Source: Staphylococcus phage MVC_VPHSA1
Length of the DNA stretch: 51,392 nt
Direction: 5' to 3' (one strand)
Sequence record: OR670591.1
Shown here: piece after piece, positions 6,041 to 48,240 of the stretch
Numbering within the stretch: the stretch's first letter is position 1
How the letters are laid out: each line of letters opens with the position of its first letter
Notes under the pieces: model-generated
What the model was told of the DNA's origin: nothing
Seen by the model: only the letters and a program-made list of their open reading frames with translations
The model's database searches: none
Translations under genes and position numbers: made by a program

Positions 6041-6069
6041 ATCTTACCATAGTCATACCAGCAGGTCAA
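6041..6069 (-). promoter_or_regulatory. sigma-A-like promoter on minus strand (TTGACC-17-TAAGAT) with GGTATGAC element in spacer
   Basis: Reverse complement of 6041-6072 reads TTGTTGACCtgctGGTATGACtatggTAAGAT. It is nearly identical to the + strand promoter at 36828. Confidence 0.55.
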
Positions 6070-6072
6070 CAA

Positions 6073-6291
6073 CTATTTTGTAACTTTGTAGAAAATTCTT
6101 TTATGATTAACCCAGTGAGCCAGATACATAGCGTCATAGCCAGCTTGGAGAAGCTTATTAGTCGTTTTTCTGCCTCGCAATTCATAGTAAACGCAAAGAA
6201 CTAAAGAGTATAGCATCTTAGTTTTCTCTAAGAGTGTAAACCTATTAGTACTAGTTAGTATCTCAATAGCTCTTTCTTTTAGCTGAATCAA
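6073..6291 (-). CDS. hypothetical small basic protein (72 aa); candidate regulator
   Basis: The protein given in the ORF track is encoded only by the reverse complement. TTG start at 6291 with a perfect AAGGAGGT RBS 8 nt upstream on the minus strand. The track labels it + but it is minus. Confidence 0.55.
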   Translation of the reverse strand: MIQLKERAIEILTSTNRFTLLEKTKMLYSLVLCVYYELRGRKTTNKLLQAGYDAMYLAHWVNHKRIFYKVTK

Positions 6292-6310
6292 TTTAGGTAT
6301 ACCTCCTTAG

Positions 6311-6398
6311 TTAACTAATTAGTTAATAACTATATAGTTTTAAAGTATTTAAAATCTTTAATATCTATGAGGTAGAACTAATTAGTTAAGCTATTTAG
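6311..6398. promoter_or_regulatory. AT-rich control region with perfect 16-bp palindrome TTAACTAATTAGTTAA (6311-6326), second copy AACTAATTAGTTAA (6376-6389), TATGAGGTAGA (6366-6376) and TAAGCTATTTA
   Basis: Self-complementary sequence read directly. The same motifs recur at 49367-49471. Confidence 0.5.
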
Positions 6399-6524
6399 TA
6401 ACCCTCAAAAGATATATGAATTAGGTGTTTACTCTTTAGCTTTAACTGTCAGTTTCCAAAGATAAACACCCCAGTCATATATATAGTGTAAGGACAGTAC
6501 GGAATTTACTTAGGAGGTGGAAAG

Positions 6525-7433
6525 ATGCCAGAAAACAAACAAGGCTTATTCTACTTGGGTAAGTTCTCAGAGGTTGTGAACTTTGAAGAAGGCAAACCAG
6601 ACGAGCTAGGAATAGTTAAAGAGGCTGAGCTTTTCTCTACAGGTACACACCGAGGCAAAGAGTACACGACTCAAGATTTAGAAACTTTGGCTACTAACTT
6701 TTCAACTGACGAAAGAGTCCCTATTCAGCTAGACCATTCTGAGAGTGTCCGTGATACAGTCGGCTTTCTTGAAGAGGCAAAAGTTAAGGGTGACAAACTA
6801 CTTGGAAAAGTTAGAATCATTGACGAATTTGCTCAAGACCGTGTAGAAAAAGGTCTCATGGGTAAGCTGTCAGTTTCGTTTTACATTCAGTACAACGAGG
6901 AGGACGACACTATTAGACCTCATAAGCTACGTGAGGTTTCACTGGTTGCTTTTCCTCAAGTAAAGTCAGCTCAATTGTTTAGTGAGAATGGCTTTGTATC
7001 TTATATCGAAAAGGAGGCTAAACCAATGCCAGAAAACAAAAACCCAGAAGTTAAAGCGCCAACTCTAGAGCAGTTCGGTGAGTTAATGGAACAGTTCAAT
7101 GCTATGAAAGACGAAATGGATAAGTTAAAAGCTGAAAAGGTTTCTTTCAAAGAGGCTAACGTATTAGCTCAAGTTGAAAAGTTCCAAGAAGCTAAGCAAA
7201 TCGTACCAGCTCAAGCTGAGTCATTAAAGAACTTACTAGCTTCATTCTCTGAGGAGCAAGCTCAATTGTTCGAGGTATTTATGAGTAACCACCAAACGGT
7301 TGACTTATCTGAACAAGGTCAAGTAGAAGGTGGCGACCCAGAAGACAAGCGCACTCAAGAGCAAAAAGACTTTGACGCTTTCTATGAGGAGCACGCTAAA
7401 AATACGGAACGTCCCTATAATACTATAACATAA
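6525..7433 (+). CDS. scaffolding protein (coiled-coil acidic C-half; N-half may be prohead-protease-like)
   Basis: 302 aa with RBS AGGAGGTGG. The C-terminal half is Glu/Lys/Gln-rich and predicted coiled coil. Located upstream of the decoration and capsid genes. Confidence 0.55.
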   Translation: MPENKQGLFYLGKFSEVVNFEEGKPDELGIVKEAELFSTGTHRGKEYTTQDLETLATNFSTDERVPIQLDHSESVRDTVGFLEEAKVKGDKLLGKVRIIDEFAQDRVEKGLMGKLSVSFYIQYNEEDDTIRPHKLREVSLVAFPQVKSAQLFSENGFVSYIEKEAKPMPENKNPEVKAPTLEQFGELMEQFNAMKDEMDKLKAEKVSFKEANVLAQVEKFQEAKQIVPAQAESLKNLLASFSEEQAQLFEVFMSNHQTVDLSEQGQVEGGDPEDKRTQEQKDFDAFYEEHAKNTERPYNTIT

Positions 7434-7452
7434 AACAAGGAGGTTAACAAAT

Positions 7453-7875
7453 ATGGCACGTAATAAAGTGGAATACCACATTCAAGCTGGCTCTACTTTT
7501 ACTTTCAAAGTGAAAGCAGGTTCAACTTTAAAGATTGGTGACGTAGTAGAAATTTCTGGAGCTCGTGAGGTTACAACTGCTGCTGCTGGTTCTGAAAAGG
7601 TTGCTGGAGTAGTTTACTCTGGAACTGTTGGAGTTGACGGTGTAAACGTTGGCTACCAAGGTGACCGTGGCGACGTAGTAACAGTAATTATCTTACGACC
7701 ATTCGTATATATGACTGCAAGCGCAGCTATTCCAGCTGGAGCTCAATTGAAGGCTGCTGGTGCAAACAAAGTAGCTGCTATTGATACTGCAACTGACAAG
7801 TTTACTTCAAAAATTGGCTTAGCAATTACACCTGCAAGCGCAGCTAATGACGTTATTCTTGTAGCGTTAGGTTAA
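7453..7875 (+). CDS. Ala/Gly/Val-rich small structural protein (head decoration / DUF2190-like)
   Basis: 140 aa, low complexity with G/A/V-rich beta-type sequence. Positioned between the scaffold and major capsid genes. RBS AAGGAGG. Confidence 0.4.
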   Translation: MARNKVEYHIQAGSTFTFKVKAGSTLKIGDVVEISGAREVTTAAAGSEKVAGVVYSGTVGVDGVNVGYQGDRGDVVTVIILRPFVYMTASAAIPAGAQLKAAGANKVAAIDTATDKFTSKIGLAITPASAANDVILVALG

Positions 7876-7907
7876 TAAATAACTCAAAATAAGGGAGGTT
7901 TTACATT

Positions 7908-8767
7908 ATGCCAGATATTATCTTAGGTCAACACCAGATGCTTAAAAAGGAGTTCGTTGACAAGCGTATTCGTGACTTAGTAGGTCACCAGTTTGTGGCT
8001 GACCAATTGTTTACGCAAACAAACGTTGATGCTCTATCTATTAAGTACTACCAAGACGGAGAGGCTGACTCTAAAGGTCGTCAAGCTTACAATGTAGTAC
8101 CAGAAGTTGGAGAAAGCTCTAACTTTGAGCGTATTGGATTAACAGAGGTTGAGAAACAAGAGTTCATTAAAAGTACGGACTTGAGGCTGTAATCTCTGAG
8201 GAAATCCAAAAGTGGGGCAACACAGGTTACATGGAGCGTGCTTACCGCAAGTTAGCTCTTAACGTTAAGAAAATGGTTGACACTATGGCTTACGACGTAG
8301 CAACTAACAAGTATACTGGTGGCGGAGGTCGCTTAGGTATTACTTCTGCTGGTTGGACTACAGCTGACAAAATGATTGGCGAATTAGTTGACGCTAAAAC
8401 AGATGCAGCTGAGTACGGTTACAATCTTGACACTGTAGTTGTTAACCCTCGTGTTATGGCTATGTTGTTAAAGACTAAAGACATTCGTGACGCTTTCCGT
8501 CAGAATAACACTGACGTAGCTTTACTACGTGGCTACATTGGTGACTTCATGGGACTTTCTTTCATTCAAGACGAGAACTTCCAAAACAAGCACGTCTTAA
8601 TGGTTCAAAAGAAAGTTATCGGTGACATTGCTGACGCTGAGGGCTTACGCACAAAAGTATATAACGAGGAGTCAAATGACCGCACAATTGTACGTGCTAC
8701 ACGTTACACTCAAGCGTACTTGTCTGACCCTAAAGCTGTATACTTCTTAAAGAACGTTATTGCGTAA
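7908..8767 (+). CDS. major capsid protein (frame change at A4 run ~8167-8171; fragments 7908-8192 and 8231-8767)
   Basis: RBS AAGGGAGG. The combined ~285-aa product sits in the MCP position. Frame 2 is open from 8171 and continues ...KYGLEAVISEEIQKWGNTGYMERAY. Confidence 0.6.
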
Positions 8768-8826
8768 TACTGGAGTAACACTGAGGAGGGCTTTCAGCTC
8801 TCCTTTAGTTTTATGGAGGCGATACA

Positions 8827-11994: not shown

Positions 11995-14900
11995 ATGGCT
12001 AATATAGTGGATATTATTATTAACTCCAGAGACAACGCAAGTGCGAATATCGGTAGAGTTGGTCAAGCGCTAAACGGACTACAGACTACAGCAGGTAGAG
12101 CTAATGCTGGTATGGCTGCTTTGCAAGGCGTTGGAGGTATGGCTATGAGTCAGTTAGCTGGCTCTGTAGTCGGTGGATTCGTGAATATGATTCAAGGTTC
12201 TAGAGACTTTGAGGCAGCAACTCGTAGAGCAGCAGTTCTTTCTGGTGGTAACTACAACACAGTAAAGAAAGACGTTTTAGATATGGCTAAGAGCTCGGTG
12301 TACAGCACGACTCAAGTAGCTGACGCTTTCGCAGAGTTAGGAGCTAAAGGTTTCGACTCAGCTCAAGCTACAAAAGCTTTGCCAGGGGTTTTAAGCGCAG
12401 CAGCAGCCTCAGGGGAAGATTTAGGAATGGTAGCCGACACAATTACCTCAGCACTGAACGCCTTTGGTATGGAAGCCTCTCAGTCTTCTCACGTAGCTGA
12501 CGTTTTAGCAATGGCAGCAAACGCAACAGCAGCTGGCGTAGGTGATATGCAGTATGCCTTCAAGTATGCAGCAGCACCAGCTAACGCTCTTGGTATCTCG
12601 ATGGAAGAACTTGCAGCCTCAGTAGGTATTATGTCCAACGCAGGTATTAAAGGCGAAACAGCAGGTACAGCTCTAAGGTCTGCAATGTTACGACTTGTTA
12701 AACCTCCAAAGGCAGCAGCTAACATGCTTAGAGACTTGGGAGTAAGTACTACTGACTCAGACGGTAAGATGAAATCACTAGCTCAGATTACTGGAGAGCT
12801 CGGAAAAGGTATGGAAGGAATGACCCAAGCTCAGAAGGGAGCAGCTTTAGCGACAATTTTCGGTACTGAGGCAGTATCAGCAATGATGAGTCTCGTTGAT
12901 GCTGGACCAGAAAAGCTGCAAAAGCTTACAAACGAGCTAGTCAACTCTGGAGGCAGCTCTAAGAAGGCAGCAGACCAGATGCTTGATGGCTGGGCAGGAG
13001 CAATGACCAAAAATGGAATCAGCTCTCGACGTTACAGCTCGTGCATTAACAGACGCACTAGGACCAGCTTTAAACGTAGTAGCTACAGGAGTAATGAACT
13101 TAGCTAACTGGTTTAATGACCTTTCTCCAGCAGCTCAATCTGTTATAGGTGGACTACTTGGCTTTGGTGCTGTAGTAGTTGTAATTGGCGCAGTCGTTTC
13201 AGCTATTGCTCTATTAGCTCCAGCTTTCTTGAGCGCACTTGCAGCAGCAGCTCCATTTATCGCTATTGGAGTAGCTATCGCAGGAGTAGCAGCTATTATA
13301 ATTTCTCAGTGGGAAACTGTCAAGCCATTTTTCGATAAAGTTTGGCAAGCAATACTACCAGCAGTTCAAGCATTCAAGCAAACTTTTCAGAACACATTCG
13401 ACAACTTAGCTAGTGCGGTTGGTCCAATCTGGGACAAAATCAAACAAGTGTTTAAATCTTTAGAGCCAATTATTTTAGCAATAGGGGTTGTGCTAGGTGG
13501 ATTCCTTGTAATTGCACTCTCAGTATTTAACGGAGTAGTAAACGCAATAGCTCCACTTTTAGATGCTTTCTTGAGCGTCATTGGTTGGGTGAGTGAAATG
13601 GTTCAAATGGTTGGTTCTCTACTAAGCGGAGACTGGCAGGGAGTTATGGACCACTGGAACAATGCGAGCCAGTTTGCTGTTGACTTCTTTAAGTCTCTTT
13701 GGGATGCGCTAGTCGGTTTCTTTGGCGGAATCTGGGACAACATTAACAACGTGCTAAAGTCTTACGGAATTGACATAGTTCAGAGCCTTACTGATATGTG
13801 GAACTCAGCAAAAACAGCAACGTTAAACTGGCTCAGTGAAACTGGTTCTAGTATCTCTAGTGGATGGAACGACATAGTTAACTCTGTGACTCAGTTCTTT
13901 ACGGATATTGGTAACTGGTTCTCGAACGGATGGAATACAGCTAAGACAGCGACTATCGAGTTTCTGACTCAATTGCTTACTGACTGGTCAACGAACTTGA
14001 ACAATATCTTAACAGCAGTTGGCAACTGGTTCAACGAGGTAGGCAACTGGTTTGCTCAACTTCCAGAAAGAATCTTGTCAACTCTACAAGGCTTGTGGGA
14101 GCAATTCACTACATGGTGGGGTAACTTGTTTACAACAACGAGCCAGATTGTATCTGATGGAGTTAATGCTGTAAAGCAATTCTTCCTCGATTTACCTATG
14201 AACATTGTTAACGGTCTAGTGTACGGAGTAGGTTTCATTATCGGGGTATTCGTTGGATTATTCCTAGGAATCTCAAACGCAGTACAAAACGGTATACAAA
14301 TTGTGATTCAGTTCTTCAAGGAACTTCCAACTAACCTGTACAACTTAGCCATTCAAGCTAGGGACTGGGTAGTCAACACGATTAGCAACATGATGGAAAC
14401 CGCTAAGACTTGGACTCAACAAGGCGTGCAAGCAGTTATTACTTTCTTCCGTGAGCTGCCAACTAACTTGAGTAACCTTGCTAGTCAAATGAAAGAGTGG
14501 GTTGTCAACAAGTTCAACGAAATGGTAACGAGTGCGAAACAGTGGGTTAACGATATGGTCAACTCAATTAAGAACTGGTTCAAGAACATGCAAACAGATG
14601 CGAGCAACTCAGCAAACCAGATGGGTAGCCAAGTCAAGCAATGGTTTACTGATATGGTTAACCAAGCTAAGCAGAAAGTAAACGATATGGTTAGCGGAGT
14701 TAAACAGTGGTTCTCTGATATGAAAAGTAACATTAGCTCGACAGTGAGCTCAATGGCTTCCTCTGTTAAACAATGGTTTACTGATATGATGAACAACGCT
14801 AAGAACGCTGTTAACAGCGGAGTCAACAACATTCGTACTTTCTTTAGTAATCTTCCAAGTCAAATTATGGGATACATTACTAATTTAGCGAGCAACTTAG

Positions 14901-15468
14901 TTTCTTCTTTCCGAAATATGATGACTAACGCAGGTAACGCTGTGAGTAATGGAGTTACTAGCATGGTCAATGCGATTAAGAACTTTGGAACTAGCTTTTA
15001 AACGCTGGTAAGGGGCTTATTAACGCTTTCGTTGACGGAATAAAGAATACTATAGGGAAAGCTGTTAGCGCTGTTCAAGACGGTATGAACGCTGTCAGAC
15101 AGTACCTACCATTCTCACCTGCCAAGAAAGGACCGCTAAGCGACCTAGACAAATCTGGTGAGTCATTCTTCCCAACTTGGTACGAGGGAGCACTAACTCA
15201 AGTAAAACCTATGTCAAGAGCTATCGCAGGAGCTATGGGACAAATGAATGACCAGATGCAAGCTGAGTTCGGAACCGTTGGACTTGAAGCCTTCACAGGT
15301 GGCGGCAAGCAACAAGTAACAGTTACTCACGAGCACGTCATGACAGGTAAGATTGAGGTAGAAGGCGACGGAGGCAACAAAGAAACATTTGACTTGACAG
15401 TACAAAAACTACAAGAACAACAAGACGAGTACTGGAAAGATTTAAAGCAAGCATTTAGAAGAAAATAA
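11995..15468 (+). CDS. tape measure protein (three frame pieces: 11995-13107, 13013-15001, 15001-15468)
   Basis: Gly/Ala-rich N region, hydrophobic segments, long W/N/Q repeat region. Breaks at the A5 run 13008-13012 and at TTTTAAA 14996-15002. Confidence 0.85.
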
Positions 15469-22539: not shown

Positions 22540-22618
22540 TAGTCATACTCAGGTAACACTTTCCGTAAGTCCCACTAGGGCAGGTCCAAATAAAAATGAA
22601 AGGATAAAAGGTGATAAT

Positions 22619-22906: not shown

Positions 22907-22935
22907 TTGACTTATGTAGTAATACCAATTAGTAT
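22907..22935 (+). promoter_or_regulatory. sigma-A-like promoter TTGACT-17-TAGTAT
   Basis: Consensus spacing, upstream of 22975. Confidence 0.5.
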
Positions 22936-22974
22936 ACTAAATAGTACAACAATTTAATACTGGGAGGCTAACAC

Positions 22975-23609: not shown

Positions 23610-23638
23610 TTGACACCAAAGTATGACCATAGTAATAT
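23610..23638 (+). promoter_or_regulatory. sigma-A promoter TTGACA-17-TAATAT with AGTATGAC in spacer, preceded by TTTTGTAGAAAATTGTTG
   Basis: Perfect -35 and near-consensus -10. GTATGAC lies at 23621-23627. Confidence 0.6.
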
Positions 23639-31718: not shown

Positions 31719-32030
31719 ATGTATGAGCAACTTTTAGGAAAGCGACTGTTAGATACCGAGATGCACAGAACGGAATGGAGCTATAAGAACCCTTTCGTTT
31801 TAGCTTCTCTGTACTACACAGAAGGCATGAGCACTATAGATATAGCTGAGCTGTTTGACTGTGAGCAACGCACCGTGAGGAGATACATGAACTACTATGG
31901 ACTACCTCGATTTACTAAACGGTTTAGCTTGCTCGTAAAACACCACGGTATGGCTGGAGCTAAGAAGTTAATGACTCCAGAGTACAGTCCTCTGGGGAAT
32001 CCATTTGAGTTGAAACTGGGGAGGGCTTAA
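31719..32030 (+). CDS. HTH DNA-binding protein (sigma region-4-like / NUMOD1-like helix-turn-helix)
   Basis: Motif MSTIDIAELFDCEQRTVRRYMNYYGLP. Confidence 0.45.
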   Translation: MYEQLLGKRLLDTEMHRTEWSYKNPFVLASLYYTEGMSTIDIAELFDCEQRTVRRYMNYYGLPRFTKRFSLLVKHHGMAGAKKLMTPEYSPLGNPFELKLGRA

Positions 32031-32077: not shown

Positions 32078-32106
32078 TTGCATTCTGGAAAGATATAGCA
32101 TAGAAT
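32078..32106 (+). promoter_or_regulatory. sigma-A-like promoter TTGCAT-17-TAGAAT preceded by TTTTGTAGAAAGTTGTTG
   Basis: Shares its upstream 18-mer with the promoter at 23610. Confidence 0.5.
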
Positions 32107-32138
32107 AGGTATTACCAAGGAATGACGGAGGTGAGACT

Positions 32139-32597
32139 ATGAAGGTACACAAAGTTACTAGACGTAATGGTGACACTTACGACGTTATACTTGATAATGA
32201 GTTTATTGTCGATAGAGGCATACACATTGTAAAAAGCAAGAATGATAAAGTTGGTTACGCTAAAATGATGGTCAACGGAAAAGATACTTTCGTACATCGC
32301 ATAGTACTTGGAGTTACTGATTCAAAAATAAAAGTAGACCATAAAAACGGTAATACTTTAGATAACAGAAAAGACAATTTGCGTATAGTTACTACTTCAC
32401 AAAATGGACTAAATAGAAAAGCAAAAGGAGTTTATTACAATAAAGTAAATAAAACTTGGATTGCTACTATACATTTTAACGGTAAGCATACCTATATAAC
32501 TTCTAATAAAAATAAAGAGATTGCTATGAAAGCTTACCAAAAGAAACATGCTGAATTGTTTGGGGAGTTTTCACCATGGAAGGGAGAATATAAATGA
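32139..32597 (+). CDS. HNH homing endonuclease (HNH_3 + AP2 domain) upstream of dnaE
   Basis: Motif VDHKNGNTLDNRKDNLRIVTTSQN and AP2-like motif VYYNKVNKTWIATIHFNGKHTYI. Confidence 0.8.
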   Translation: MKVHKVTRRNGDTYDVILDNEFIVDRGIHIVKSKNDKVGYAKMMVNGKDTFVHRIVLGVTDSKIKVDHKNGNTLDNRKDNLRIVTTSQNGLNRKAKGVYYNKVNKTWIATIHFNGKHTYITSNKNKEIAMKAYQKKHAELFGEFSPWKGEYK

Positions 32598-35500
32598 CTG
32601 ACAAATTACAGGTAGTACAAGAAAAGCAAACAGTATCTTATGTAGAAATTCATACTCACAGTTGTGGAAGCTTTAAAGATGCACACTCTAGAGTTGATAA
32701 GTTGGTAGCGAGAGCTAAAGAGCTTGGTCAAAAGCTGTTGCTCTTACTGACCATGGCGCACTCCACTTGATTCCTTCATTGTTCGCTGAGTGCGACAAAC
32801 AAGGTATTAAACCGTTAGCAGGAATGGAAGGATATATTACAGAAGTCAGAGGCGGTCATGGTAAAACTACAGAGAACTACCACCAGTTATATGTTGTAAA
32901 GAATCAGACTGGTTGGCGCAACCTCATGAAGCTCAGCTCAGAGGCTTACCGTACTGGTTTTCACAACAGACCAAGAGCTGACTGGGAACTACTTGAGAAG
33001 CACCACGAGGGGCTTATAGCAACGAGCAGTTGTCTTGCTGGAATGATACCTCAAGCTATACTGAAAGGCGAACTCAAGGAAGCTAGAAGGCTTACAAAGC
33101 GTTTTGTTAATATCTTTGGCGACGACTTCTATCTTGAGATTCAACCTACTCCACAAGCAGAGCAGTACATCGTTAACAAGGAGCTAGTCAAAATAAGTAA
33201 AGAGCTTGGAGTCAAACTCGTAGCGAGCGGTGACGTTCACTATGTAAATGCAGAGGACAAAATAGCTCACCAAGGTATGCTCTGTCTAGGTCGTGGAAAG
33301 AAAATGCTTGCAGAAGATACTCCAGAGTATCCATGTGAGGAATACTACTACATGAAAGATGCTCGTGAAATGGCTAGTATCTTCATAAAGAACGGACTAG
33401 AAAAAGCTCCAGTGATTGAAGCCCTTAACGCTACTCTTGAGATAGCTGACAAAGTAGATTTTAAACTTGAGAAGGTTGAAGGTTTGCTCCCTCAGTTTCC
33501 AGTAGCAAAAGGAACTACAATTGACAAAGAGATTGGCGCAGCTGTCAAGGAAGGACTACTCAGAAAAGTACACCCAGTAACTAAGACGTATGTGGACCGC
33601 ATTAACTTTGAGCTGGGAGTTATTCGTGAGAAAGGCTTCCAAGATTACTTTATGATTGTATCTGATGCGCTCAAGTTTTGTAGAGCTAACCACATTATGA
33701 CAGCACCAGCTAGGGGCTCAGCTGGAGGCTCACTAGTCGCTTACTTGCTAGATATAACTGAGGTTGACCCTATACCACATGGATTGTACTTGAGCGATTC
33801 CTAGATATTACTCGTTTGAAATTCCCTGATATTGACACAGATATTGAGGATGTAAGACGTTATGAACTCATTGAGTATCTACGTGAAAAGTATGGTCGTG
33901 ACAAGGTAGCACAGATAGTGAACACGGTGTACATGACAGCTAAGACAGCTTACAAGAACGCACTCGCTATTTATGATATTCCTTTGGTGAATCTCAACGG
34001 ATTACCAACTTAGTACCAGACGGACTGACTCTTGAGGAAGCATACGCACAAGTCCCAGAGCTACGAAAATTGAGAACTAGCTCAAAGAAAATGAAACGCA
34101 ACAGCAAGAAAGCTAAAGAGAACAAACACATACAAGACTGGGTATATGAAAAAGACATTGCTCAGATGGCTGAACTATTTGAGGGAGTGCTTGAGAAGTT
34201 TGGGAAACATGCAGGAGGCGTGCTCATAAGCCCAACGCCAATTACAGACCACTTCCCAACGTTCTTACCAGACCCAAATGGAGCACCAGAGAACATTGTA
34301 ACTCAATGGAACAAAGACGAGATTGAACAGTATGGAGGCATTAAGTTTGACTTCCTTGGTTTAAAGACTCTGAGAGTAATAGGTACAGCTTTGGAGTCAA
34401 TCTACAGAGAAACTGGTGAGCGTCCTGACATCTTGCATATAGCTAAAATGGCTAATGACCCAGAGGTATACGCTAAGATTGCTAGAGGCGAAACAGCCAA
34501 CGTCTTCCAGTTTAACTCACAAGGTATGCAGCAGCTTTGTAAATCTGTTAAGCCAACTCGATTCGAGCACCTAGTAGCCATAAACGCATTGTACCGACCA
34601 CCAGCTCTAGCCTCTGGAGATACTTGGCGCTACGCTCGCATTAAGAATGGTGAGGAAGCAGAGCACTACAGCCACCCTGACGAGCGTAACATTACAGGTG
34701 AAACCTTTGGAGTCATTACCTTCCAAGAGCACGTTATGGAGATTGTACACGTTTGCTGGTTGGGATTACGGACGAGGCGACAAGTTACGTAAAGCTAGTG
34801 CTGAGGAGCTTGAAGCTATGCGCTCAGAGTTTATTGAGGACGCACTCAACAAGTACGATTTTAACCCAGACAACACTGAGTTTGTTAAGCAGATGGATGA
34901 ACTATGGAGTCGTATTGTACGCTATATGGGTTACGGTTTCAACAAGTCCCACGGAGTAGCATACTCAATGATAAGCTACATGACAGCTTGGTTAGAGCAC
35001 CACTTCCCTACTCACTTCCAAGCAGCACTTATGAGCACGAAAATGAGTGACCTAGACAAAATAGCTCAAGTCTTTCAAGATGTGCGACGAGAGGGCTTTG
35101 ACTTCCAAGCTCCAGATATTAATAAGTCTGGTCTTACTTTCATGGCTACAAGCACTAAGATTGTATTTCCTCTCTTAGTAATTAAAGGAGTAGGTGACGG
35201 AGCTGTAAAAGGTATTCTGGAAGCTCGTGAAGCTGGCAGGTTTACTTCTCTTGAGAACTTCATGGAACGTATTGACCGACGAGTTGTAAATGCTAGACCT
35301 ATGAGACCACTTATACTTGCTGGAGCGTTTGACGAGATAGAGCCAGACCTAACAAGAATGGAAGTACTCGTTAAGTATTACAAGCTCAAAGGTGATTCGA
35401 AAAAGAAAATTGCAGAGGTGGAAGCTGAGGAGTGGAATGAGAACATAATGGCTGAGTACGAAAAAACTTTACTTGGCGTTTACATTACAGCTCACCCTCT

Positions 35501-35779
35501 TGAGAAGTACCACTTTAAAAACTGGCAGGACTTTGCAGAGGGCTACAAGAAGACTCTTATTGGTGGCTGTGTGACATCTATTAAGACGATTAATGACCGC
35601 TCTGGTAGACGAATGGCTTTCGTAGGGATTGATACTCTACAGGGACTACGTGAGGTCACAGTCTTTGCTAACCAGTTTAAAAGTATGAACACCTGATTGT
35701 CAAGAACAAAGTAGTCAAAGTCTCTGGAGAGAAACAGGGAGAGAAACTATTGGCTAACAGAATCGAGGAGTTGAACTGA
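32594..35779 (+). CDS. dnaE: DNA polymerase III alpha subunit (DnaE-type), split into >=5 frame pieces
   Basis: PHP domain (VEIHTHS, AVALTDHG), a palm region with PDIDTD, and a C-terminal OB region. The last open segment reaches the TGA at 35777-35779. Track fragments are 32767-33804, 33816-34013, 34070-34792 and 34647-35696. Confidence 0.85.
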
Positions 35780-36827: not shown

Positions 36828-36856
36828 TTGACACTCTGGTATGACTGTAGTAAGAT
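36828..36856 (+). promoter_or_regulatory. sigma-A promoter TTGACA-17-TAAGAT with GGTATGAC in spacer
   Basis: Near-identical to the minus-strand promoter at 6041-6069. Confidence 0.55.
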
Positions 36857-37430: not shown

Positions 37431-38110
37431 ATGAGCAACTTACCATTGAATGATACACAAAAGCTAATGAGCTTAGCACTATCTGGGGTAGCTCCACAGC
37501 AGCACGACAAACATGTAAATGAGGGTATGGTACTTGCAGCTCAAAACGGTGACAGTGAGGCTATGTGGTCACTAATGCAAGAATATGTAGACGTACTGAG
37601 CGTGATACTTCACAGACCTACTAAGCCACCTCGTAAAGCTAAAGCGCTGCAAAAGCTGTGGGCTAACCCTAGTTTTCAAGACTACGAGGACTTGTTCCAA
37701 GAGTCTTTACTAGAATTTATTATCTTGGTTAATGAGTACCACCCAGAGAGGGAAGCTTTGAGCGTTACGTGAGAGCTAAACTTCACCAGCGAGTATTTGA
37801 CCGCTTTTTCTCGGAGTACTTGGCTACTCAGATTAACGAAATTGAGTTTGACGAAAAGATTAAAGCCAGCATGAAGCAATGGAAGTGGAGGACGAGGAAG
37901 ACCCAAAGCTCCCAGCTCAATATCTTGAACTCTACCAAGCTCTCAATAAACTAACAAGTCGCCAGCGTCAAGTTATTGAGCTCTCAGTCTTCAAGAAGTG
38001 GAACTCCACAGAGGTAGGTAATGAGATTAGTATAAGTCCAGCAACAGTGCGTGTAACTCTAAAGAAAGCTCTTAAAAAATTAAGAAATGAATTGGAGGAG
38101 TCAAGTTATG
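37431..38110 (+). CDS. phage sigma-70 family sigma factor (regions 2 and 4), frame pieces 37338-37772 / 37769-37954 / 37879-~38110; 3' end uncertain
   Basis: Region 2.3-2.4-like motif FERYVRAKLHQRVFDRF. Region 4 HTH LTSRQRQVIELSVFKKWNSTEVGNEISISPATVRVTLKKALKKL. Confidence 0.6.
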
Positions 38111-38491
38111 GAGAAGAAAAATTGCTTAGGTTGCCGTCACAGCTCAGCTTACAAGAAAGATTTCAAAGGGGAAACGGTACGATGTTTGCTGGCAGAGACA
38201 CTTTTCGGTACAGACAAAAACGGAGAGCGTCGAGTAAAGGTTTTACCAGAAAGTCAATGCGGTCAGTGGGAGCAAAGCAGCGATACTAGAGACGTACCAG
38301 TTGACAATAAGTTTTTCCACTGTCCAGCTTGCCACTATACAGGAGCTTTGTTGTTACCTCACCAAGTAATGGGAGCTCTACAGGATGAAGTAGACGTTGA
38401 CGACATCGTTTATGATATGGAGGTAGAAGGAACTATACAAACGTGTCCGTTGTGCGACGGAGAGGGAACACTGGATGAGCTGGCTGATTAG
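38108..38491 (+). CDS. Cys-rich zinc-ribbon protein (8 Cys in CxxC pairs); possible anti-sigma factor or C-terminal domain of the sigma factor
   Basis: RBS GGAGGAG. Cys pairs at CLGC, CPAC and CPLC. Confidence 0.45.
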   Translation: MEKKNCLGCRHSSAYKKDFKGETVRCLLAETLFGTDKNGERRVKVLPESQCGQWEQSSDTRDVPVDNKFFHCPACHYTGALLLPHQVMGALQDEVDVDDIVYDMEVEGTIQTCPLCDGEGTLDELAD

Positions 38492-38732: not shown

Positions 38733-38738
38733 AAAGCT

Positions 38739-38766
38739 TGCACCAAAGTATGACTAGAGTAATACA
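38739..38766 (+). promoter_or_regulatory. sigma-A-like promoter TTGCAC-16-TAATAC with AGTATGAC in spacer
   Basis: GTATGAC lies at 38749-38755. Confidence 0.45.
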
Positions 38767-38849
38767 ATGGTAGTACCTACAGTGAGGCTGGCTACTGACT
38801 CGACTCTGGTTGGTCTCGCTACCAAGTAAAAACTAGGAGGTACAAACTA

Positions 38850-44231: not shown

Positions 44232-44239
44232 TATAATTG

Positions 44240-44257
44240 GTATGAGCTTGGTCATAC
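44240..44257. promoter_or_regulatory. inverted repeat GTATGA-gcttgg-TCATAC immediately downstream of a TATAAT hexamer (44232-44237)
   Basis: Palindromic version of the GTATGAC element. Confidence 0.45.
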
Positions 44258-44290: not shown

Positions 44291-44502
44291 ATGAAAAAGT
44301 TAAATCAGTGGCGTTTCAATTAGCAGACCCTATGGAGTTCAAGCTGTTCCATTTCTCAATGAAGCAGTCATACTTTTCAACATACGTGAAGCGACTTATA
44401 CAGCGTGACATGGAGCAAGGCAACCAAATGTTTTCTCATGAGTGGGAATCAGCTTATGAGGACTATATGGCAGACCCAAAAGAATATTTGAAAAACCTCT
44501 GA
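44291..44502 (+). CDS. hypothetical protein (~70 aa; frame change in AAAAAG 44294-44299)
   Basis: RBS GGGAGGT before the ATG at 44291. Confidence 0.35.
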
Positions 44503-44576: not shown

Positions 44577-44606
44577 TTGCAACTTTAGTAAACACCCTGC
44601 ATAATA
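44577..44606 (+). promoter_or_regulatory. promoter TTGCAA-N4-TAAACAC-N3-TGcATAATA (extended -10), followed by GGTATGAC at 44635-44642
   Basis: Near-identical architecture to the promoter at 48174. Confidence 0.55.
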
Positions 44607-44669
44607 TGAAGCACAGAGCAAGACAACACCTCAAGGTATGACTGAGGTAAAACCAAAGGAGGCAACAAA

Positions 44670-45905
44670 ATGGATAACTTAACGATTGTACAGGAGCAAG
44701 CTAATACGTTTACTATTGCAGGTGCAAAATTCAAATTAGTTAATGAAATTTCTGTCGAGGCTATGGCAAAAATGGAGCAAATTATCAGTATCAACGAGCA
44801 AGAAATACCTATACCGCAATATATGTTTGAAAGACTTGGCAGAGGTCACTGTGGAGGCACTTGGGCTATCAGTGACACACACGTACTCAAAGTAAATGAA
44901 ATACACAATAGAGCTGATATAGACATGGACCGCTTTGTTGATGGCGAGTGTCTGGAAACTCTACAAGGTTTACCAATGACTCCAAAGTTATACGCTTACT
45001 CAGAGTGCAAACAGTACATGGTGGTTGAGAGACTTTACGGTATGCAAACTGGAGAGGTAATGTACAATATGAATGCTTTCCCAGCAAAGATGGGACTCTC
45101 AATAGTACCTCAATTGTTTGATTGGAAACACTGGATACAACAAATTAACGAGTTTGTCCGAGAGAGCTGTAAACGTGGTTGGAATCCAAAGGACCTACAC
45201 GGAGAAAACTTGATGCTGACTAGAGAGGGAAAGATAGTCATTGTAGATTATGGACTATTCGAAAAGCATGGAGTACACAACAACGGAATAAGAAGCAAAT
45301 GGAGTTTTGATGAGGAGATAAAAGAAATGACTCGTCAAGTCAAGAAAATAGCTAAAGAGTTGCTTCCAAACGACTTCTCAGAAATTAACCAATATGTTGC
45401 ACCTAACTTGTGTACTTGGGAGGAGTTTCAAAAGCCAATCGAGAAAGAAGCTAAGGAGATTGTCAAGCGCTATAGTTTGACTGCTCATCTTGATGCTGAG
45501 GGGTATGACCAAGGTAACACTAGAGGAGATATTGCTGACTTTCTAGAAAAGTTTTGCCAACCAGTCGAAATCCCAAAAGCTGAGCCATTCAAGCCAATAG
45601 TTATTGACTGGGGACACCACAGAGGCAGCATACGACACATTGGAGCTGCTAAACACCAAGCCCTTAACCCAGTAGCCAATGCTGCATTATTTCAAGATAT
45701 TCGACCTCTTGTAAGCTTTCACTTGAATGACGGAGGAGTAATCAGAGAGCTAAAGGACTTACAAATTAAACCTGTTGAGCCAGTGAAATTCCCTAAGATT
45801 GAGTTTGATGTTGACAATGCAGTTAAGCAATTAGAAAAAGCTGCTGGTGGCTTCAAAGCATTATTCCAAAATATCAAAGGAGTGAAGAATAATGAGTTAT
45901 TTTGA
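44670..45905 (+). CDS. protein-kinase-like (APH/ChoK/eukaryotic-like kinase fold) protein, 411 aa
   Basis: Gly-rich loop GRGHCGG, lysine context VLKV, Brenner-type catalytic motif DLHGENLML, and DFG-like IVIVDYG. RBS AAAGGAGG. Confidence 0.5.
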   Translation: MDNLTIVQEQANTFTIAGAKFKLVNEISVEAMAKMEQIISINEQEIPIPQYMFERLGRGHCGGTWAISDTHVLKVNEIHNRADIDMDRFVDGECLETLQGLPMTPKLYAYSECKQYMVVERLYGMQTGEVMYNMNAFPAKMGLSIVPQLFDWKHWIQQINEFVRESCKRGWNPKDLHGENLMLTREGKIVIVDYGLFEKHGVHNNGIRSKWSFDEEIKEMTRQVKKIAKELLPNDFSEINQYVAPNLCTWEEFQKPIEKEAKEIVKRYSLTAHLDAEGYDQGNTRGDIADFLEKFCQPVEIPKAEPFKPIVIDWGHHRGSIRHIGAAKHQALNPVANAALFQDIRPLVSFHLNDGGVIRELKDLQIKPVEPVKFPKIEFDVDNAVKQLEKAAGGFKALFQNIKGVKNNELF

Positions 45906-46434
45906 GATTAAAGCTACTGAGTTTAAAAGTCTGAATAGGTATTTTACTAAAGTAATGTATGACCTAGGTGTTACCTTGAAGCTTTGCCCAGAGTGCCACA
46001 AAGACAATGCAGCCTTTTGGAATCACAAGGAAAAGCCAATGACAATCGAACTAGATGGTAACTATGCAAGAATAAATAATCTGTACCACTTGACAGCACT
46101 GGCTCATGAATTAGGTCACGCTGCTCAGAACGCTGATAAAGGTTTTACTAGTAATAATGATGCACTAGCACACTTTGGAGTACACGAGGCAGAAATTGAC
46201 GCTTGGGAGCGTGCCTTCCATATGTGCGCTGAGGCTGGTTTCACTAAAGAGCAAATGTATATGACTTATGATGACATGCTCGATGCTCTACCAGCTTACT
46301 TCTCAGAGCAAGGGCTCGATTGGAGTCTATATGTAGCTATGAGAGTTGATGCAAAGCCAAAACTGCTAGAACTGGACTATGCGCTGGCACGCTGTCGAGT
46401 AGCATTTTTGGAAGCTTTAAAAACTGTACAGTAA
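45892..46434 (+). CDS. HExxH zinc metallopeptidase-like protein (ImmA/IrrE, DUF955-like)
   Basis: Motif LTALAHELGHAAQN. Start overlaps the kinase stop. Confidence 0.5.
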   Translation: MSYFEIKATEFKSLNRYFTKVMYDLGVTLKLCPECHKDNAAFWNHKEKPMTIELDGNYARINNLYHLTALAHELGHAAQNADKGFTSNNDALAHFGVHEAEIDAWERAFHMCAEAGFTKEQMYMTYDDMLDALPAYFSEQGLDWSLYVAMRVDAKPKLLELDYALARCRVAFLEALKTVQ

Positions 46435-46879: not shown

Positions 46880-46939
46880 CTATGTGGATATTCTTAACTG
46901 TTTGTATTATTGCTTTAGTGGTATTGGAGATAAAAGGAA

Positions 46940-47167
46940 ATGATTAAGGTAGGCGACTCAGTAAAAGTCAAAAGCTTTTCGCTCGAAAGTGAGCATAATC
47001 CGACTGGAGAGGACGAGGGAGTTGTAATCTATATCGAGAAAGCTTTCATTAAGACTCCCTACATGCCAGCGGTACAGGTTAAGCTTGTTGGTGGGGATAT
47101 GGATAACCATAAGATAATGAGATTTACGTTTGAGGAGGTGACCAAGATTGAGGACAATGGAAATTGA
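46940..47167 (+). CDS. hypothetical protein (75 aa)
   Basis: Preceded by a 21-aa hydrophobic peptide ORF at 46883-46945. Confidence 0.35.
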   Translation: MIKVGDSVKVKSFSLESEHNPTGEDEGVVIYIEKAFIKTPYMPAVQVKLVGGDMDNHKIMRFTFEEVTKIEDNGN

Positions 47168-47603
47168 CGTAAAAGGTCATAAGGTTTGGATAGACGAGGC
47201 TATATACAATCTATTAGTAGCTGATGGCAGGACTATATATGTGCGAATGAAAAAGAATGCTCCATACTTCATTGTGAGGTGGTCAGCAAAAGAGGAAATA
47301 TACTTGCACCAACTGGTAAGAGGGAAGGCTCCAGAGGGCTATCTCGTTGACCACATAAACGGAAATACTTGTGATAATCGCTTTGAGAATTTACGGATTG
47401 TGAGTAGGACACTAAACAACTTGAATACCAAAGCAAAGAACTATGAGTTTCACCACGGTAAGTATGTTGTCTATTTCAATGTTGAAGGTAAGCGCACTCG
47501 CTATGGACGATATGAGACCGAGGAGGAAGCTATACAGCGTGTTAAAGAGGTCAGAGCTATGCTGATTCAACAATTAATCGAAAAGGGTGGTCATATACTA
47601 TGA
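47148..47603 (+). CDS. HNH homing endonuclease (HNH_3 + AP2)
   Basis: Motif VDHINGNTCDNRFENLRIVSRTLN and AP2-like motif YVVYFNVEGKRTRYGRYETEEEA. Confidence 0.8.
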   Translation: MRTMEIDVKGHKVWIDEAIYNLLVADGRTIYVRMKKNAPYFIVRWSAKEEIYLHQLVRGKAPEGYLVDHINGNTCDNRFENLRIVSRTLNNLNTKAKNYEFHHGKYVVYFNVEGKRTRYGRYETEEEAIQRVKEVRAMLIQQLIEKGGHIL

Positions 47604-47800
47604 GAAAACCAACTGTTACAGAAAGATTGACTGAGGCGTTTGACTTAATGTTTGTGGTACATGTACAGACTTATGATGACGGACGTAAACTGTTTACAGC
47701 TGAGGAGCGTGGTATCCCTTCACTGGTTACTATTGATTCGGACGGACACGTTATGATTAAAAACAATAATTCTGCTTGGTGGGATTATCTAGGAGTGTGA
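47600..47800 (+). CDS. hypothetical protein (66 aa)
   Basis: ORF with overlapping start. Confidence 0.35.
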   Translation: MRKPTVTERLTEAFDLMFVVHVQTYDDGRKLFTAEERGIPSLVTIDSDGHVMIKNNNSAWWDYLGV

Positions 47801-47804
47801 ACTA

Positions 47805-47948
47805 ATGAGAGAGCAAATACTTGACTGTCTTAACGCAGTAGATGAAATGCAAAAGAAAGTTGTTTTTCAGTCGTCAAACTGGTGGTACTTGGAAGGCTCA
47901 AAAGATGCTTATAACAACATGTTGGATGAATTGGAGGAAAACAAATGA
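47805..47948 (+). CDS. small hypothetical protein (47 aa)
   Basis: RBS AGGAGTG. Stop overlaps the next ATG. Confidence 0.3.
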   Translation: MREQILDCLNAVDEMQKKVVFQSSNWWYLEGSKDAYNNMLDELEENK

Positions 47949-48120
47949 AAAAGAAAGTAGTTAGAAGGCTCATATTAGAGCTCTCAGAGGAAGAAGCTAA
48001 TGCAATAGTTACAGCACTCGAAAGAGGAGAATACTCTGTAGATGTCAACTCTGAGGCTCGTGACATTATAGTTAGAGCACAAATTATATTGAGGGAGTTT
48101 GTTGGTGGGGTTGACCATTA
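47945..48120 (+). CDS. small hypothetical protein (58 aa)
   Basis: ORF ending inside a terminator hairpin. Confidence 0.3.
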
Positions 48121-48137
48121 GGTCAGCTCCTTTTTTA
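48110..48137 (+). terminator. rho-independent terminator
   Basis: Hairpin GTTGACC-atta-GGTCAGC followed by TCCTTTTTTA. Confidence 0.5.
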
Positions 48138-48173
48138 TCTTAATAAAAATAATTTAAACTTTTTAAAAAGTTG

Positions 48174-48202
48174 TTGCTAAAAGTAAACACTTTGCATATA
48201 CT
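48174..48202 (+). promoter_or_regulatory. promoter TTGCTA-N4-TAAACAC-N3-TGcATATACT, followed by inverted GTCATAC/GTATGAC pair
   Basis: Twin of the promoter at 44577. Confidence 0.55.
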
Positions 48203-48222
48203 AAGAGTAACAAATCAAACGA

Positions 48223-48240
48223 GTCATACCAGAGTATGAC
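48223..48240. promoter_or_regulatory. inverted repeat GTCATAC-caga-GTATGAC (operator-like)
   Basis: Palindrome of the element found in the promoter spacers. Confidence 0.45.

What the first reader, a model, noticed from the sequence alone, without database searches (positions are those of the whole stretch)
6041..48240. GTATGAC operator-like element embedded in the spacer of multiple sigma-A promoters and as palindromes after others
The heptamer (A/G)GTATGAC lies between the -35 and -10 boxes of four promoters: 23610 (ccaaaGTATGACcatag), 36828 (ctctgGTATGACtgtag), 38739, and the minus-strand promoter at 6041-6069, which is nearly identical to 36828. It also lies just downstream of three others: at 44636, as the inverted pair GTATGA-N6-TCATAC at 44240-44257, and as GTCATAC-N4-GTATGAC at 48223-48240. 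A 7-mer is expected ~6 times by chance in 51 kb on both strands, but at least 7 copies fall exactly in promoter cores. This is the signature of a common repressor or activator site controlling a dispersed regulon covering early, replication and accessory genes.
Basis: seen in the sequence. Interest (0 to 1): 0.7.

Follow-up and report, generated by a model that had tools for sequence, protein, structure and literature searches.

The report
Phage early-promoter operator made of phased heptads
The repeated GTATGAC is real, but it is one arm of a longer operator (7-bp arms exactly 11 bp apart, one arm often doubling as the promoter's -10 box) that marks nearly all early promoters of this Bacillus-type phage and its relatives; it is probably bound by a small, uncharacterised phage protein that shuts those promoters off.

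Summary
Observation confirmed and extended. GTATGAC occurs 25 times (24 in the unique genome) against about 5 expected. Thirteen copies are lone, lie in ORFs and reflect codon content (mostly Tyr-Asp). The other 11 belong to 10 operators.

The functional unit is not the heptamer. It is two or three pseudo-palindromic arms (GT-A-N-T/G-AC: GTATGAC, GTATTAC, GTAATAC, GTAGTAC) spaced exactly 11 bp centre to centre (7-N4-7). In 7 related genomes, N4 gives 89 arm pairs against 3.5 expected, and other spacings stay at background.

In "class I" promoters the operator spans -24 to -7, so the right arm is G plus the -10 hexamer. In "class II" it starts right after the -10. Nine of 11 recognisable sigma-A-like promoters in the window carry it.

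The architecture is conserved in phages of B. cereus, B. pumilus, B. subtilis, B. licheniformis, an alkaliphilic Bacillus and Geobacillus. Arms can flip to their exact reverse complement between orthologues.

Best candidate binder: a conserved protein of about 70 aa (window 44291-44502, frameshifted here) whose own promoter carries the best palindrome. A distant subfamily has different arms with the same 11-bp architecture. Its fold is unassigned, and ribbon-helix-helix is only inferred. A conserved sigma-region-4-like HTH protein (31719-32030) remains a rival. Repression is inferred from position.

The parts
6041..6069 (-). Class I promoter with operator: -35 TTGACC (6069-6064), arm GTATGAC (6058-6052), N4, arm G+TAAGAT (6047-6041; -10 = 6046-6041). 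It drives the small minus-strand genes 5894-5422.
8764..8781 (+). Two-arm site GTAATAC-tgga-GTAACAC just after the major capsid gene. Conserved in Anath (GTAAGAC-tgag-GTAACAC). Role unclear.
22542..22559 (+). Two-arm site GTCATAC-tcag-GTAACAC just after the endolysin gene. In Anath the left arm is flipped to GTATGAC.
23610..23638 (+). Class I promoter with operator before the SSB-like/helicase/primase module: TTGACA, N5, GTATGAC (23621-23627), N4, G+TAATAT (23632-23638).
32078..32137 (+). Class II: promoter TTGCAT (32078-32083)-N17-TAGAAT (32101-32106), followed at once by three arms in register: GTATTAC (32109), GAATGAC (32120) and GTGAGAC (32131). It lies upstream of the DnaE-type polymerase gene (ATG 32139).
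   Evidence: conserved in Anath
36828..36856 (+). Class I promoter with operator before the DUF1064 gene and the phage ECF-like sigma factor gene: TTGACA, N5, GTATGAC (36839-36845), N4, G+TAAGAT.
38737..38776 (+). Class I promoter (weak -35) with a three-arm array GTATGAC (38748)-taga-GTAATAC (38759; holds the -10 TAATAC)-aatg-GTAGTAC (38770). It lies before the thymidylate synthase/nucleotide-metabolism cluster.
44232..44257 (+). Class II: -10 TATAAT (44232-44237), then the near-perfect palindrome GTATGAG-cttg-GTCATAC (44240-44257). This is the promoter of the small regulator gene.
44291..44502 (+). Candidate operator-binding protein (about 70 aa; MKKVKSVAFQLADPMEF...YFSTYVKRLIQRDME). In this window it is frameshifted by loss of one A in the A6 run after the ATG. 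The ORF as sequenced is 44308-44502.
44636..44653 (+). Two-arm site GTATGAC-tgag-GTAAAAC in the leader of the protein kinase gene (ATG 44670), downstream of TTGCAA-N17-CATAAT (44577-44605).
45503..45520 (+). Intragenic two-arm site GTATGAC-caag-GTAACAC inside the kinase gene. Conserved in DZ1; Anath has a comparable site in its kinase gene.
45957..45974 (+). Intragenic two-arm site GTATGAC-ctag-GTGTTAC.
48174..48240 (+). Promoter TTGCTA-N17-TATACT (48174-48202) with an everted two-arm site GTCATAC-caga-GTATGAC (48223-48240) in the leader. Conserved in DZ1 and Anath.
48886..48928 (+). Promoter TTGACA-N17-TAGAAT (48886-48914) whose -10 overlaps the left arm of GAATGAC-ctct-GTAGTAC (48911-48928).
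31719..32030 (+). Rival candidate binder: conserved HTH protein (sigma-70 region-4-like, PHROG 9217 'transcriptional regulator').

Best explanation
The GTATGAC copies at promoters are arms of an operator. The operator is two or three 7-bp pseudo-palindromic arms (consensus GT-A-N-T/G-AC) placed exactly 11 bp apart, that is, on one face of the helix.

In most early and middle promoters of this phage, which have ordinary host sigma-A -35/-10 boxes with a 17-bp spacer, the operator either spans -24 to -7, so that G plus the -10 hexamer is its second arm, or begins right after the -10.

A small phage-encoded protein (window 44291-44502) most likely binds each arm as a two-fold-symmetric unit and polymerises cooperatively over neighbouring arms, in the manner of Arc/Mnt-type ribbon-helix-helix repressors. 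This would occlude the -10 region, repress its own promoter and shut down early/middle transcription, while the phage's own ECF-like sigma factor (itself made from one of these promoters) takes over.

Shown by computation: the existence, architecture, position, enrichment and conservation of the operator. Inferred: the identity of the binder, its fold, its oligomeric state and the sign of regulation.
For: Architecture and enrichment:
- The palindrome GTATGAC-N4-GTCATAC with <=2 mismatches occurs 7 times in the window against 0.12 expected. All 8 related genomes are enriched.
- Spacing scan over 7 genomes: N4 gives 89 pairs against 3.5 expected; N0-N12 otherwise stay near background.
- Skeleton GT...AC-N4-GT...AC: 38 hits against 2-13 at other spacings; 9 against 0.6 in the window.
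- Three-arm arrays in register: 25 against 0.33 expected.

Position:
- 38 of 80 non-coding sigma-A-like promoters carry the operator, against 5 of 109 coding look-alikes. The modal offset is -12.
- In the promoter logo, G-24, T-23, A-19, C-18 and G-13 are as informative as the -35 and -10 boxes.
- 9 of 11 recognisable promoters in the window carry it.

Conservation:
- The same layout appears in phages with only 63-73% nucleotide identity in their best-conserved genes and with different hosts.
- Against Anath, the GT..AC skeleton is 95% conserved, flanks 85%, arm centres and spacer about 71%.
- Two orthologous arms are exact reverse-complement flips, which argues that each arm is read by a symmetric unit.

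Binder:
- The most nearly perfect palindromes sit in the promoter of one small conserved gene in the window, DZ1, Andromeda, Jayan and BpsS36.
- The protein's N-terminal 42 residues are nearly invariant in all operator-bearing phages.
- The model shows an extended N-terminus plus two helices.
- A distant subfamily with a different N-terminal strand has different arms (ACCAGT/ACTAGT/ACTGGT), 11 or 22 bp apart, right after a -10-like box upstream of its gene, including one flip.
Against: - There is no experimental evidence of binding or of regulation.
- The HTH protein and the sigma factor are also present in every operator-bearing genome, so presence or absence does not discriminate between candidates.
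- Because most early promoters carry the operator, finding it upstream of the small gene is only weakly specific.
- The covariation evidence rests on 4-5 partly related loci.
- In this window the small gene is frameshifted. If that is real rather than an assembly error, this phage would lack the protein.
- Some sites lie after late genes or inside ORFs, which a simple promoter-occlusion model does not explain.
Confidence: 0.6

Rival explanations
1. The operator is real, but it is bound by the conserved HTH protein encoded just upstream of the DNA polymerase gene (window 31719-32030; sigma-70 region-4-like). This protein could act as a repressor, or as an appropriator that docks on RNA polymerase next to the -35 box.
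For: - It is present and well conserved (core SYKNPF..LYYTEGMST..MA.LLGCEQRTVRRYMN) in all 8 genomes.
- PHROG 9217 is annotated 'transcriptional regulator', and it gives weak HTH/sigma r4 hits.
- The literature on this phage group regards it as the putative transcription factor (PMC9658697).
- A three-arm array lies directly downstream of its gene (32109-32137).
Against: - Pseudo-palindromic arms, exact arm flips between orthologues and arrays of three arms in 11-bp register fit a symmetric oligomer per arm better than a monomeric region-4-like HTH.
- The best palindromes are not at its gene but at the small protein's gene.
- The distant-subfamily covariation involves the small protein family, not this HTH.
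Confidence: 0.2
2. The arms are not a protein operator but part of the promoter itself: an extended element read by RNA polymerase holoenzyme (host sigma-A or the phage ECF-like sigma) that tunes promoter strength or timing.
For: - The orientation and position are fixed relative to the -10 in class I promoters.
- Many left arms are preceded by TG, giving a TGnTATGAC extended -10-like look.
- The phage encodes its own sigma factor.
Against: - The same arms occur after the -10, in leaders at +20 to +30, everted, after late genes, inside ORFs and as three-arm arrays. None of these is a promoter-element position.
- The 11-bp arm spacing is far too short for a -35/-10 pair (16-18 bp).
- No conserved element lies downstream of the heptamer beyond the -10.
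- Arms flip orientation between orthologues, which a directional promoter element should not tolerate.
Confidence: 0.07
3. The sites are bound by a conserved host (Bacillaceae) transcription factor that the phages exploit to sense host physiology.
For: The operator is the same in phages of hosts ranging from Geobacillus to the B. cereus group, as would be expected for a conserved host factor.
Against: - I know of no Bacillus regulator with a GTATKAC-N4-GTMATAC box. From my own knowledge, the Rex, LexA, Fur/Zur/PerR, FadR, FapR, PlcR and CtsR consensus boxes differ in word or spacing.
- Phage-encoded candidates with invariant DNA-binding regions exist in every genome.
- The autoregulatory layout points to a phage gene.
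- Host genomes were not scanned.
Confidence: 0.05
4. There is no function beyond common descent: the promoters are recent duplicates of one module and the heptamer is carried along.
For: The window promoters at 6069(-), 23610, 32078 and 36828 share an upstream block (TTTGTAGAAAATTGTTGAC).
Against: - The skeleton positions are more conserved than the flanks across about 25% divergence.
- The arms recur in promoters with unrelated flanks in distant phages.
- The spacing peak at N4 is 25-fold.
- Exact arm flips require three coordinated substitutions.
Confidence: 0.03

Closest known systems
Arc and Mnt repressors of Salmonella phage P22 (immI region; ribbon-helix-helix)
   Same: Small phage proteins of about 50-80 aa. 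Two dimers bind two sub-sites about 11 bp apart on one face of the DNA. The operator lies within the core promoter, between or over the -35 and -10. They autoregulate and shut off an early function. (From established knowledge of Arc/Mnt; the layout of the present operator is.)
   Different: No detectable sequence, profile or structural similarity. Here the operator is dispersed over about 15 sites in the genome rather than one locus, arrays of three arms are common, and one arm is the -10 hexamer itself.
Omega (ω) repressor of plasmid pSM19035 (inc18; ribbon-helix-helix) and its heptad arrays
   Same: A global regulator that reads arrays of 7-bp heptads which may be in direct or inverted orientation, one dimer per heptad, with cooperative binding needing at least two heptads. 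It controls several dispersed promoters. (From established knowledge.) Orientation-tolerant heptads and multi-arm arrays are seen here.
   Different: ω heptads are contiguous (7-bp repeat). Here the arms are separated by 4 bp (11-bp repeat). The word differs (WATCACW against GTATKAC), and no homology is detectable.
Early-to-late switches of Bacillus phages (phi29 p4/p6; SPO1 sigma cascade gp28, gp33/34)
   Same: This phage likewise has sigma-A-type early promoters and its own sigma factor.
   Different: The proteins, sites and mechanisms differ. phi29 p4 binds upstream of promoters and contacts the alpha-CTD. No operator overlapping the -10 across a regulon has been reported for those phages, to my knowledge.
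Andromedavirus and related Bacillus siphoviruses (Andromeda, Curly, Eoghan, Blastoid, Novomoskovsk; DZ1, Anath, 019DV002, Jayan, GBK1)
   Same: The window is a member of this group: 94% identical to DZ1, with shared gene order and the same operator and candidate proteins.
   Different: The published description states that no DNA-binding transcription factor genes were found and does not mention the operator (PMC9658697). The small protein is annotated hypothetical, or at most 'DNA binding domain protein'.

Membership tests
Transcription-factor operator (generic criteria) | Over-represented relative to composition-matched chance | tested here: met
   18-mer with <=2 mismatches: 7 against 0.12 in the window, and enriched in all 8 genomes. 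N4 arm pairs: 89 against 3.5.
Transcription-factor operator (generic criteria) | Fixed position relative to core promoter elements | tested here: met
   Modal offset -12 from the start of the -10. 38 of 80 non-coding promoters carry it, against 5 of 109 coding look-alikes. Logo.
Transcription-factor operator (generic criteria) | Conserved across diverged relatives more than the flanking DNA | tested here: met
   Skeleton 95% against flanks 85% in window versus Anath. Present in phages of six host groups.
Transcription-factor operator (generic criteria) | Demonstrated protein binding and regulatory effect | not testable with these tools
   Needs EMSA or footprinting and reporter or RNA-seq experiments.
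Ribbon-helix-helix (Arc/MetJ/CopG) superfamily, for the small protein | Significant sequence or profile similarity to an RHH family | tested here: not met
   - No Pfam hit at the gathering score.
- 1 of 95 members hits RHH_7 at E 0.009.
- No PDB sequence hit.
- hhalign against Arc/Mnt/CopG/omega gives probability 0.2%.
Ribbon-helix-helix (Arc/MetJ/CopG) superfamily, for the small protein | Beta-strand, helix, helix topology with structural similarity to solved RHH proteins | tested here: inconclusive
Ribbon-helix-helix (Arc/MetJ/CopG) superfamily, for the small protein | One dimer per short pseudo-symmetric sub-site, with neighbouring dimers about one helical turn apart | tested here: inconclusive
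   The DNA side fits: pseudo-palindromic arms, an 11-bp register, orientation flips and arrays. The protein's oligomeric state is unknown.
Sigma-A (sigma-70-type) promoters | TTGACA-like -35 and TATAAT-like -10 separated by 16-18 bp, upstream of genes | tested here: met
   (17-bp spacers; -35 at 5-6 of 6). Transcription start sites were not mapped.
MerR-type activator sites (palindrome in an over-long spacer) | 19-20-bp spacer between the -35 and -10 | tested here: not met
   Spacers are 17 bp, occasionally 16 or 18.
Promoter of the phage ECF-like sigma factor | Two elements about 16-17 bp apart, directional, upstream of the genes it controls | tested here: not met
   Arms are 11 bp apart, occur in either orientation and in triplets, and also lie downstream of -10 boxes.
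Omega-type contiguous heptad arrays | Heptads abutting with a 7-bp period | tested here: not met
   N0 spacing is at background (8 against 2.3), while N4 gives 89 against 3.5.

The most novel reading that the evidence does not exclude
An uncharacterised, widespread family of small phage DNA-binding proteins (PHROG 8966 and relatives; 374 clusters at 50% identity, with no Pfam, PDB or structural neighbour) polymerises on arrays of short pseudo-palindromic arms in strict 11-bp register. It uses the -10 hexamer of host-type promoters as one of its arms. In a whole lineage of Bacillaceae phages it would then be the master shut-off switch of early transcription, working in tandem with a phage ECF-like sigma factor. 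Different subfamilies read different arm words with the same geometry.
Probability: 0.4. Interest if true: 0.65.

Novelty: new variant of a known kind. Interest (0 to 1): 0.55.

Why it matters
The transcription programme of this phage group (Andromedavirus-like and DZ1/Anath-like siphoviruses of Bacillus and Geobacillus) has not been worked out. The one paper that discusses regulation reports no DNA-binding regulators.

A conserved operator at nearly every early promoter, together with a short list of two candidate binders, gives a directly testable model of the early-to-late switch. It would also assign a function to a protein family of unknown function found in hundreds of phage and prophage clusters.

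Practically, the result offers a compact, portable promoter/operator pair for Bacillus engineering: strong sigma-A promoters with a built-in 18-bp operator. It also gives a rule (7-bp arms, 11-bp register) for finding related regulons in other phages.

It is not a new principle of gene regulation. Promoter-occluding phage repressors are classical.

Tried and rejected
- Heptamer as a stand-alone over-represented word: rejected as sufficient evidence. It ranks about 9th under an order-1 Markov model and is unremarkable under higher orders. Thirteen lone copies are codon content.
- Text search for GTATGAC in the literature: only primer sequences.
- Heptamer as a -35-like or extended -10 element of another sigma factor: no conserved partner element at 16-18 bp, and positions are incompatible.
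- MerR-like activation: spacers are 17 bp.
- From memory only, comparison with the PlcR box, AbrB TGGNA repeats, GntR-type GT-N-AC boxes, and the Rex, LexA, Fur, Zur, FadR and FapR boxes: word or spacing does not fit. Not pursued.
- Presence/absence discrimination between the small protein and the HTH protein: failed, because both are in all 8 genomes. GBK1's HTH is simply unannotated.
- RNA hairpin or terminator reading of the palindromes: class I sites lie upstream of the start site, so a DNA-level reading is needed. Not pursued further.

Full report
**What the window is.**
- The 51,392-bp window is a complete siphophage genome with a terminal overlap: 1-888 repeats at 50505-51392, leaving about 50,504 bp unique.
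- It is 94% identical to Bacillus phage DZ1 and about 76% to Anath and S4-2.
- Its large terminase places it in a wider group that includes the Andromeda-like B. pumilus phages, the B. subtilis phages of the 019DV002 type, Jayan (B. licheniformis), vB_BpsS-36 (an alkaliphile) and Geobacillus phage GBK1.
- A 100%-identical protein on a contig of exactly 51,392 bp shows that the record is deposited as 'Staphylococcus phage MVC_VPHSA1'.
- Many essential genes are frameshifted relative to DZ1, with 119 indels of 1-2 nt. The assembly is therefore error-prone.

**Checking the observation.**
- GTATGAC occurs 25 times on both strands against 5.2 expected from dinucleotide shuffles.
- The raw count is weaker evidence than it looks. 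Under an order-1 Markov model the word is about the ninth most enriched 7-mer, behind ribosome-binding-site words, and under orders 2-3 it is not exceptional.
- Thirteen of the 24 unique copies are lone, lie in ORFs and mostly encode Tyr-Asp (TAT GAC), or His-Thr on the other strand.
- The other 11 copies belong to 10 paired sites.

**The real unit.**
- In relatives, the heptamer is followed after exactly four bases by a near reverse complement. Andromeda, for example, has GTATGAC-tcag-GTCATAG, GTATGAC-caag-GTGATAC and GTATGAC-caag-GTTATAC.
- In the 'spacer' promoters the second arm is G plus the -10 hexamer (GTAATAC, GTAATAT, GTAAGAT).
- The palindrome GTATGAC-N4-GTCATAC with up to 3 mismatches matches the window 12 times against 1.6 expected. 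With up to 2 mismatches it matches 7 times against 0.12, and all eight genomes are enriched.
- Position 5 of the arm tolerates G or T, so the consensus is GTATKAC-N4-GTMATAC.
- A spacing scan over seven non-redundant genomes shows one sharp peak: N4 gives 89 pairs against 3.5 expected, and all other spacings from N0 to N12 stay near background.
- Using only the invariant skeleton GT...AC-N4-GT...AC gives 38 hits, against 2-13 at other spacings, and 9 against 0.6 expected in the window.
- Three arms in the same register occur 25 times against 0.33 expected. In the window these are 38748-38776 (GTATGAC-taga-GTAATAC-aatg-GTAGTAC) and 32109-32137.

**Position relative to promoters.** I called sigma-A-like promoters without reference to the heptamer (-35 at 5 of 6 or better, a 16-18-bp spacer, TAnnnT).
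- In non-coding DNA of the seven genomes, 38 of 80 carry an operator within -20..+45 of the -10. Among look-alikes in coding DNA the figure is 5 of 109. The dominant offset is exactly -12.
- In these 'class I' promoters the operator spans -24 to -7. G-24, T-23, A-19, C-18 and G-13 are as informative as the -35 and -10 hexamers.
- In 'class II' promoters the array begins directly after the -10. Examples are TATAAT-tg-GTATGAG-cttg-GTCATAC at 44232-44257 and TAGAAT-ag-GTATTAC... at 32101-32137. The latter is a promoter I had first scored as lacking the element.
- Other sites overlap a -10 (48911) or lie in leaders (44636, and the everted 48223-48240).
- Nine of the 11 sigma-A-like intergenic promoters I could recognise in the window carry the operator. 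The promoters at 41363 and 22907 do not.
- The genes downstream are the SSB/helicase/primase module, the polymerase, the DUF1064 and sigma factor genes, nucleotide metabolism, the kinase, small accessory genes and a minus-strand cluster inside the structural region.

**Conservation.**
- A collection-wide scan for TTGAC-N6-GTATGAC-N5-TAA returned 48 loci, 11 of which are distant relatives of this phage. Their promoters have unrelated flanks but the same layout.
- Against Anath, eight window sites have clear orthologues. The GT..AC skeleton is 95% identical, alignable flanks 85%, and arm centres and the spacer about 71%.
- In two orthologous sites an arm has flipped to its exact reverse complement. 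At the SSB promoter the window has GTATGAC and Anath has GTCATAC, inside otherwise near-identical DNA.
- A flip requires three coordinated substitutions. It indicates that each arm is read in an orientation-insensitive way, as by a two-fold-symmetric unit. This also makes sense of the everted site at 48223, which is itself conserved in DZ1 and Anath.

**Who binds?** A binder must be conserved wherever the operator is.
- Three DNA-binding candidates are universal: the ECF-like sigma factor, an HTH protein just upstream of the polymerase gene (31719-32030), and a protein of about 70 aa encoded after the FtsK-like and relaxase-like genes.
- The most nearly perfect palindromes lie in the promoter of this small gene in the window, DZ1, Andromeda, Jayan and vB_BpsS-36. 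In a second clade the gene has a class I promoter.
- Its N-terminal 42 residues (MKKVKSVAF.(L/V).DP.E..L......YFSTYVKRLIQRDME) are almost invariant in 57 homologues.
- An AlphaFold2 model (pLDDT 81) has an extended N-terminus and helices 14-24 and 31-42, plus a C-terminal helix. This is the topology of a ribbon-helix-helix monomer.
- A profile search over 1.84 billion representatives enlarged the family to 374 clusters. The broader profile still finds nothing, apart from one member in 95 that weakly hits RHH_7.

**Covariation.** In 61 distant loci of the family the GT...AC operator is absent upstream of the gene: 3 of 61, against a 2.7% background. The word is therefore specific to the clade with the KKVKSVAF strand. 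In a subgroup with the strand NKSVSFNV:
- The gene is preceded, right after a -10-like TATATT, by two or three arms of a different word (ACCAGT, ACTAGT, ACTGGT).
- The arms are concentrated about 20-fold over the rest of the locus.
- Six of the ten pairwise distances are 11 or 22 bp.
- One arm is an exact flip.

The geometry is the same and the word is different. This is the best available argument that this protein family reads such arrays, though it rests on only four or five partly related loci.

**Mechanism proposed.**
- Shown by computation: strong host-type promoters carry an operator of phased arms overlapping or abutting the -10.
- Inferred: the small protein binds each arm as a symmetric dimer and spreads cooperatively over two or three arms on one face of the helix, as Arc and Mnt do on sub-sites 11 bp apart. 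It thereby excludes RNA polymerase, represses its own promoter and shuts off early/middle transcription.
- The ECF-like sigma factor is itself expressed from an operator-bearing promoter (36828) and presumably directs late genes.
- An activating role cannot be excluded by computation, but the 17-bp spacers argue against a MerR-like mechanism.

**Caveats.**
- In this window the small gene has lost one A from the A6 run after its ATG. Given the state of the assembly this is probably an error, but if real the phage would lack the protein.
- The HTH protein remains a serious rival. It is the factor that the literature on this group singles out, while stating that no DNA-binding transcription factor genes were found (PMC9658697).
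- Sites after the capsid and endolysin genes and inside ORFs (8764, 22542, 45503, 45957) are conserved but unexplained.

**Novelty.**
- I found no description of this operator or of a function for the small protein. PHROG 8966 is 'unknown function' and GenBank calls it 'hypothetical', or at most 'DNA binding domain protein'.
- The kind of system, a small phage repressor on a promoter-embedded operator, is classical.
- The new features are the lineage-wide regulon, the use of the -10 as an operator arm, the strict 11-bp heptad register with orientation-tolerant arms, and an orphan protein family as the likely reader.

Noticed in passing
window 1-888 and 50505-51392: The two ends of the window are direct repeats (99-100% identical; the spacing of 50504/50505 differs by one indel). 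This is terminal redundancy or an assembly overlap of a circularly permuted genome.
   Followed up: partly
whole window; e.g. 979-3030, 7908-8767, 11995-15001, 23713-24589, 32139-35696, 37879-38491, 44291-44502: Many essential genes (terminase, capsid, tape measure, SSB-like, DnaE polymerase, sigma factor, small regulator) are split by frameshifts relative to DZ1. There are 119 indels of 1-2 nt against DZ1, 42 of them in homopolymer context. This is probably an error-prone assembly.
   Followed up: partly
whole window: The record appears to be deposited as 'Staphylococcus phage MVC_VPHSA1' (an identical protein on a 51392-bp contig), yet every relative found is a phage of Bacillus or Geobacillus. 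The host label is doubtful.
   Followed up: partly
window 6311-6326, 6374-6389, 49367-49382: A second, unrelated palindromic motif, TAACTAATTAGTTAA (7 strand-hits against 0.7 expected), is confined to the two large AT-rich intergenic regions before the genes at 6525 and 49539. It could be another operator, late promoters for the phage sigma factor, or an origin.
   Followed up: partly
L134, L135, L140, L144 (IMG/VR contigs), 20-95 nt upstream of the small-protein homologue: A distant subfamily of the small protein has its own upstream arrays of ACCAGT/ACTAGT/ACTGGT arms, 11 or 22 bp apart, directly after a TATATT box.
   Followed up: partly
L082/L092 (IMGVR_UViG_2822788015_000001) and L079/L098 (IMGVR_UViG_3300011774_000002): Some related phage contigs carry two paralogues of the small protein a few kb apart.
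   Followed up: no
window 8764-8781 and 22542-22559: Two-arm operator sites lie immediately after the major capsid gene and after the endolysin gene, both conserved in Anath (one with a flipped arm). They are not at recognisable promoters, and their role is unknown.
   Followed up: partly
window 22912-22957: An overlapping AT-rich palindrome (TTATGTAGTAATACCAATTAGTATACTAA...) lies at the sigma-A-like promoter 22907-22935, one of the two promoters without a clear operator.
   Followed up: no
L051 (Geobacillus phage GBK1) 28527-28784: GBK1 encodes an unannotated homologue of the HTH regulator (58% identity to the window protein). The ORF annotated next to it (GBK1_28) is unrelated.
   Followed up: partly
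window 5422-6291 (minus strand): A cluster of three small genes is transcribed against the structural module from an operator-bearing promoter. The equivalent position in relatives holds different minus-strand cargo, e.g. an antirepressor in Anath and a zinc-ribbon 'DNA binding domain protein' in 019DV002.
   Followed up: no
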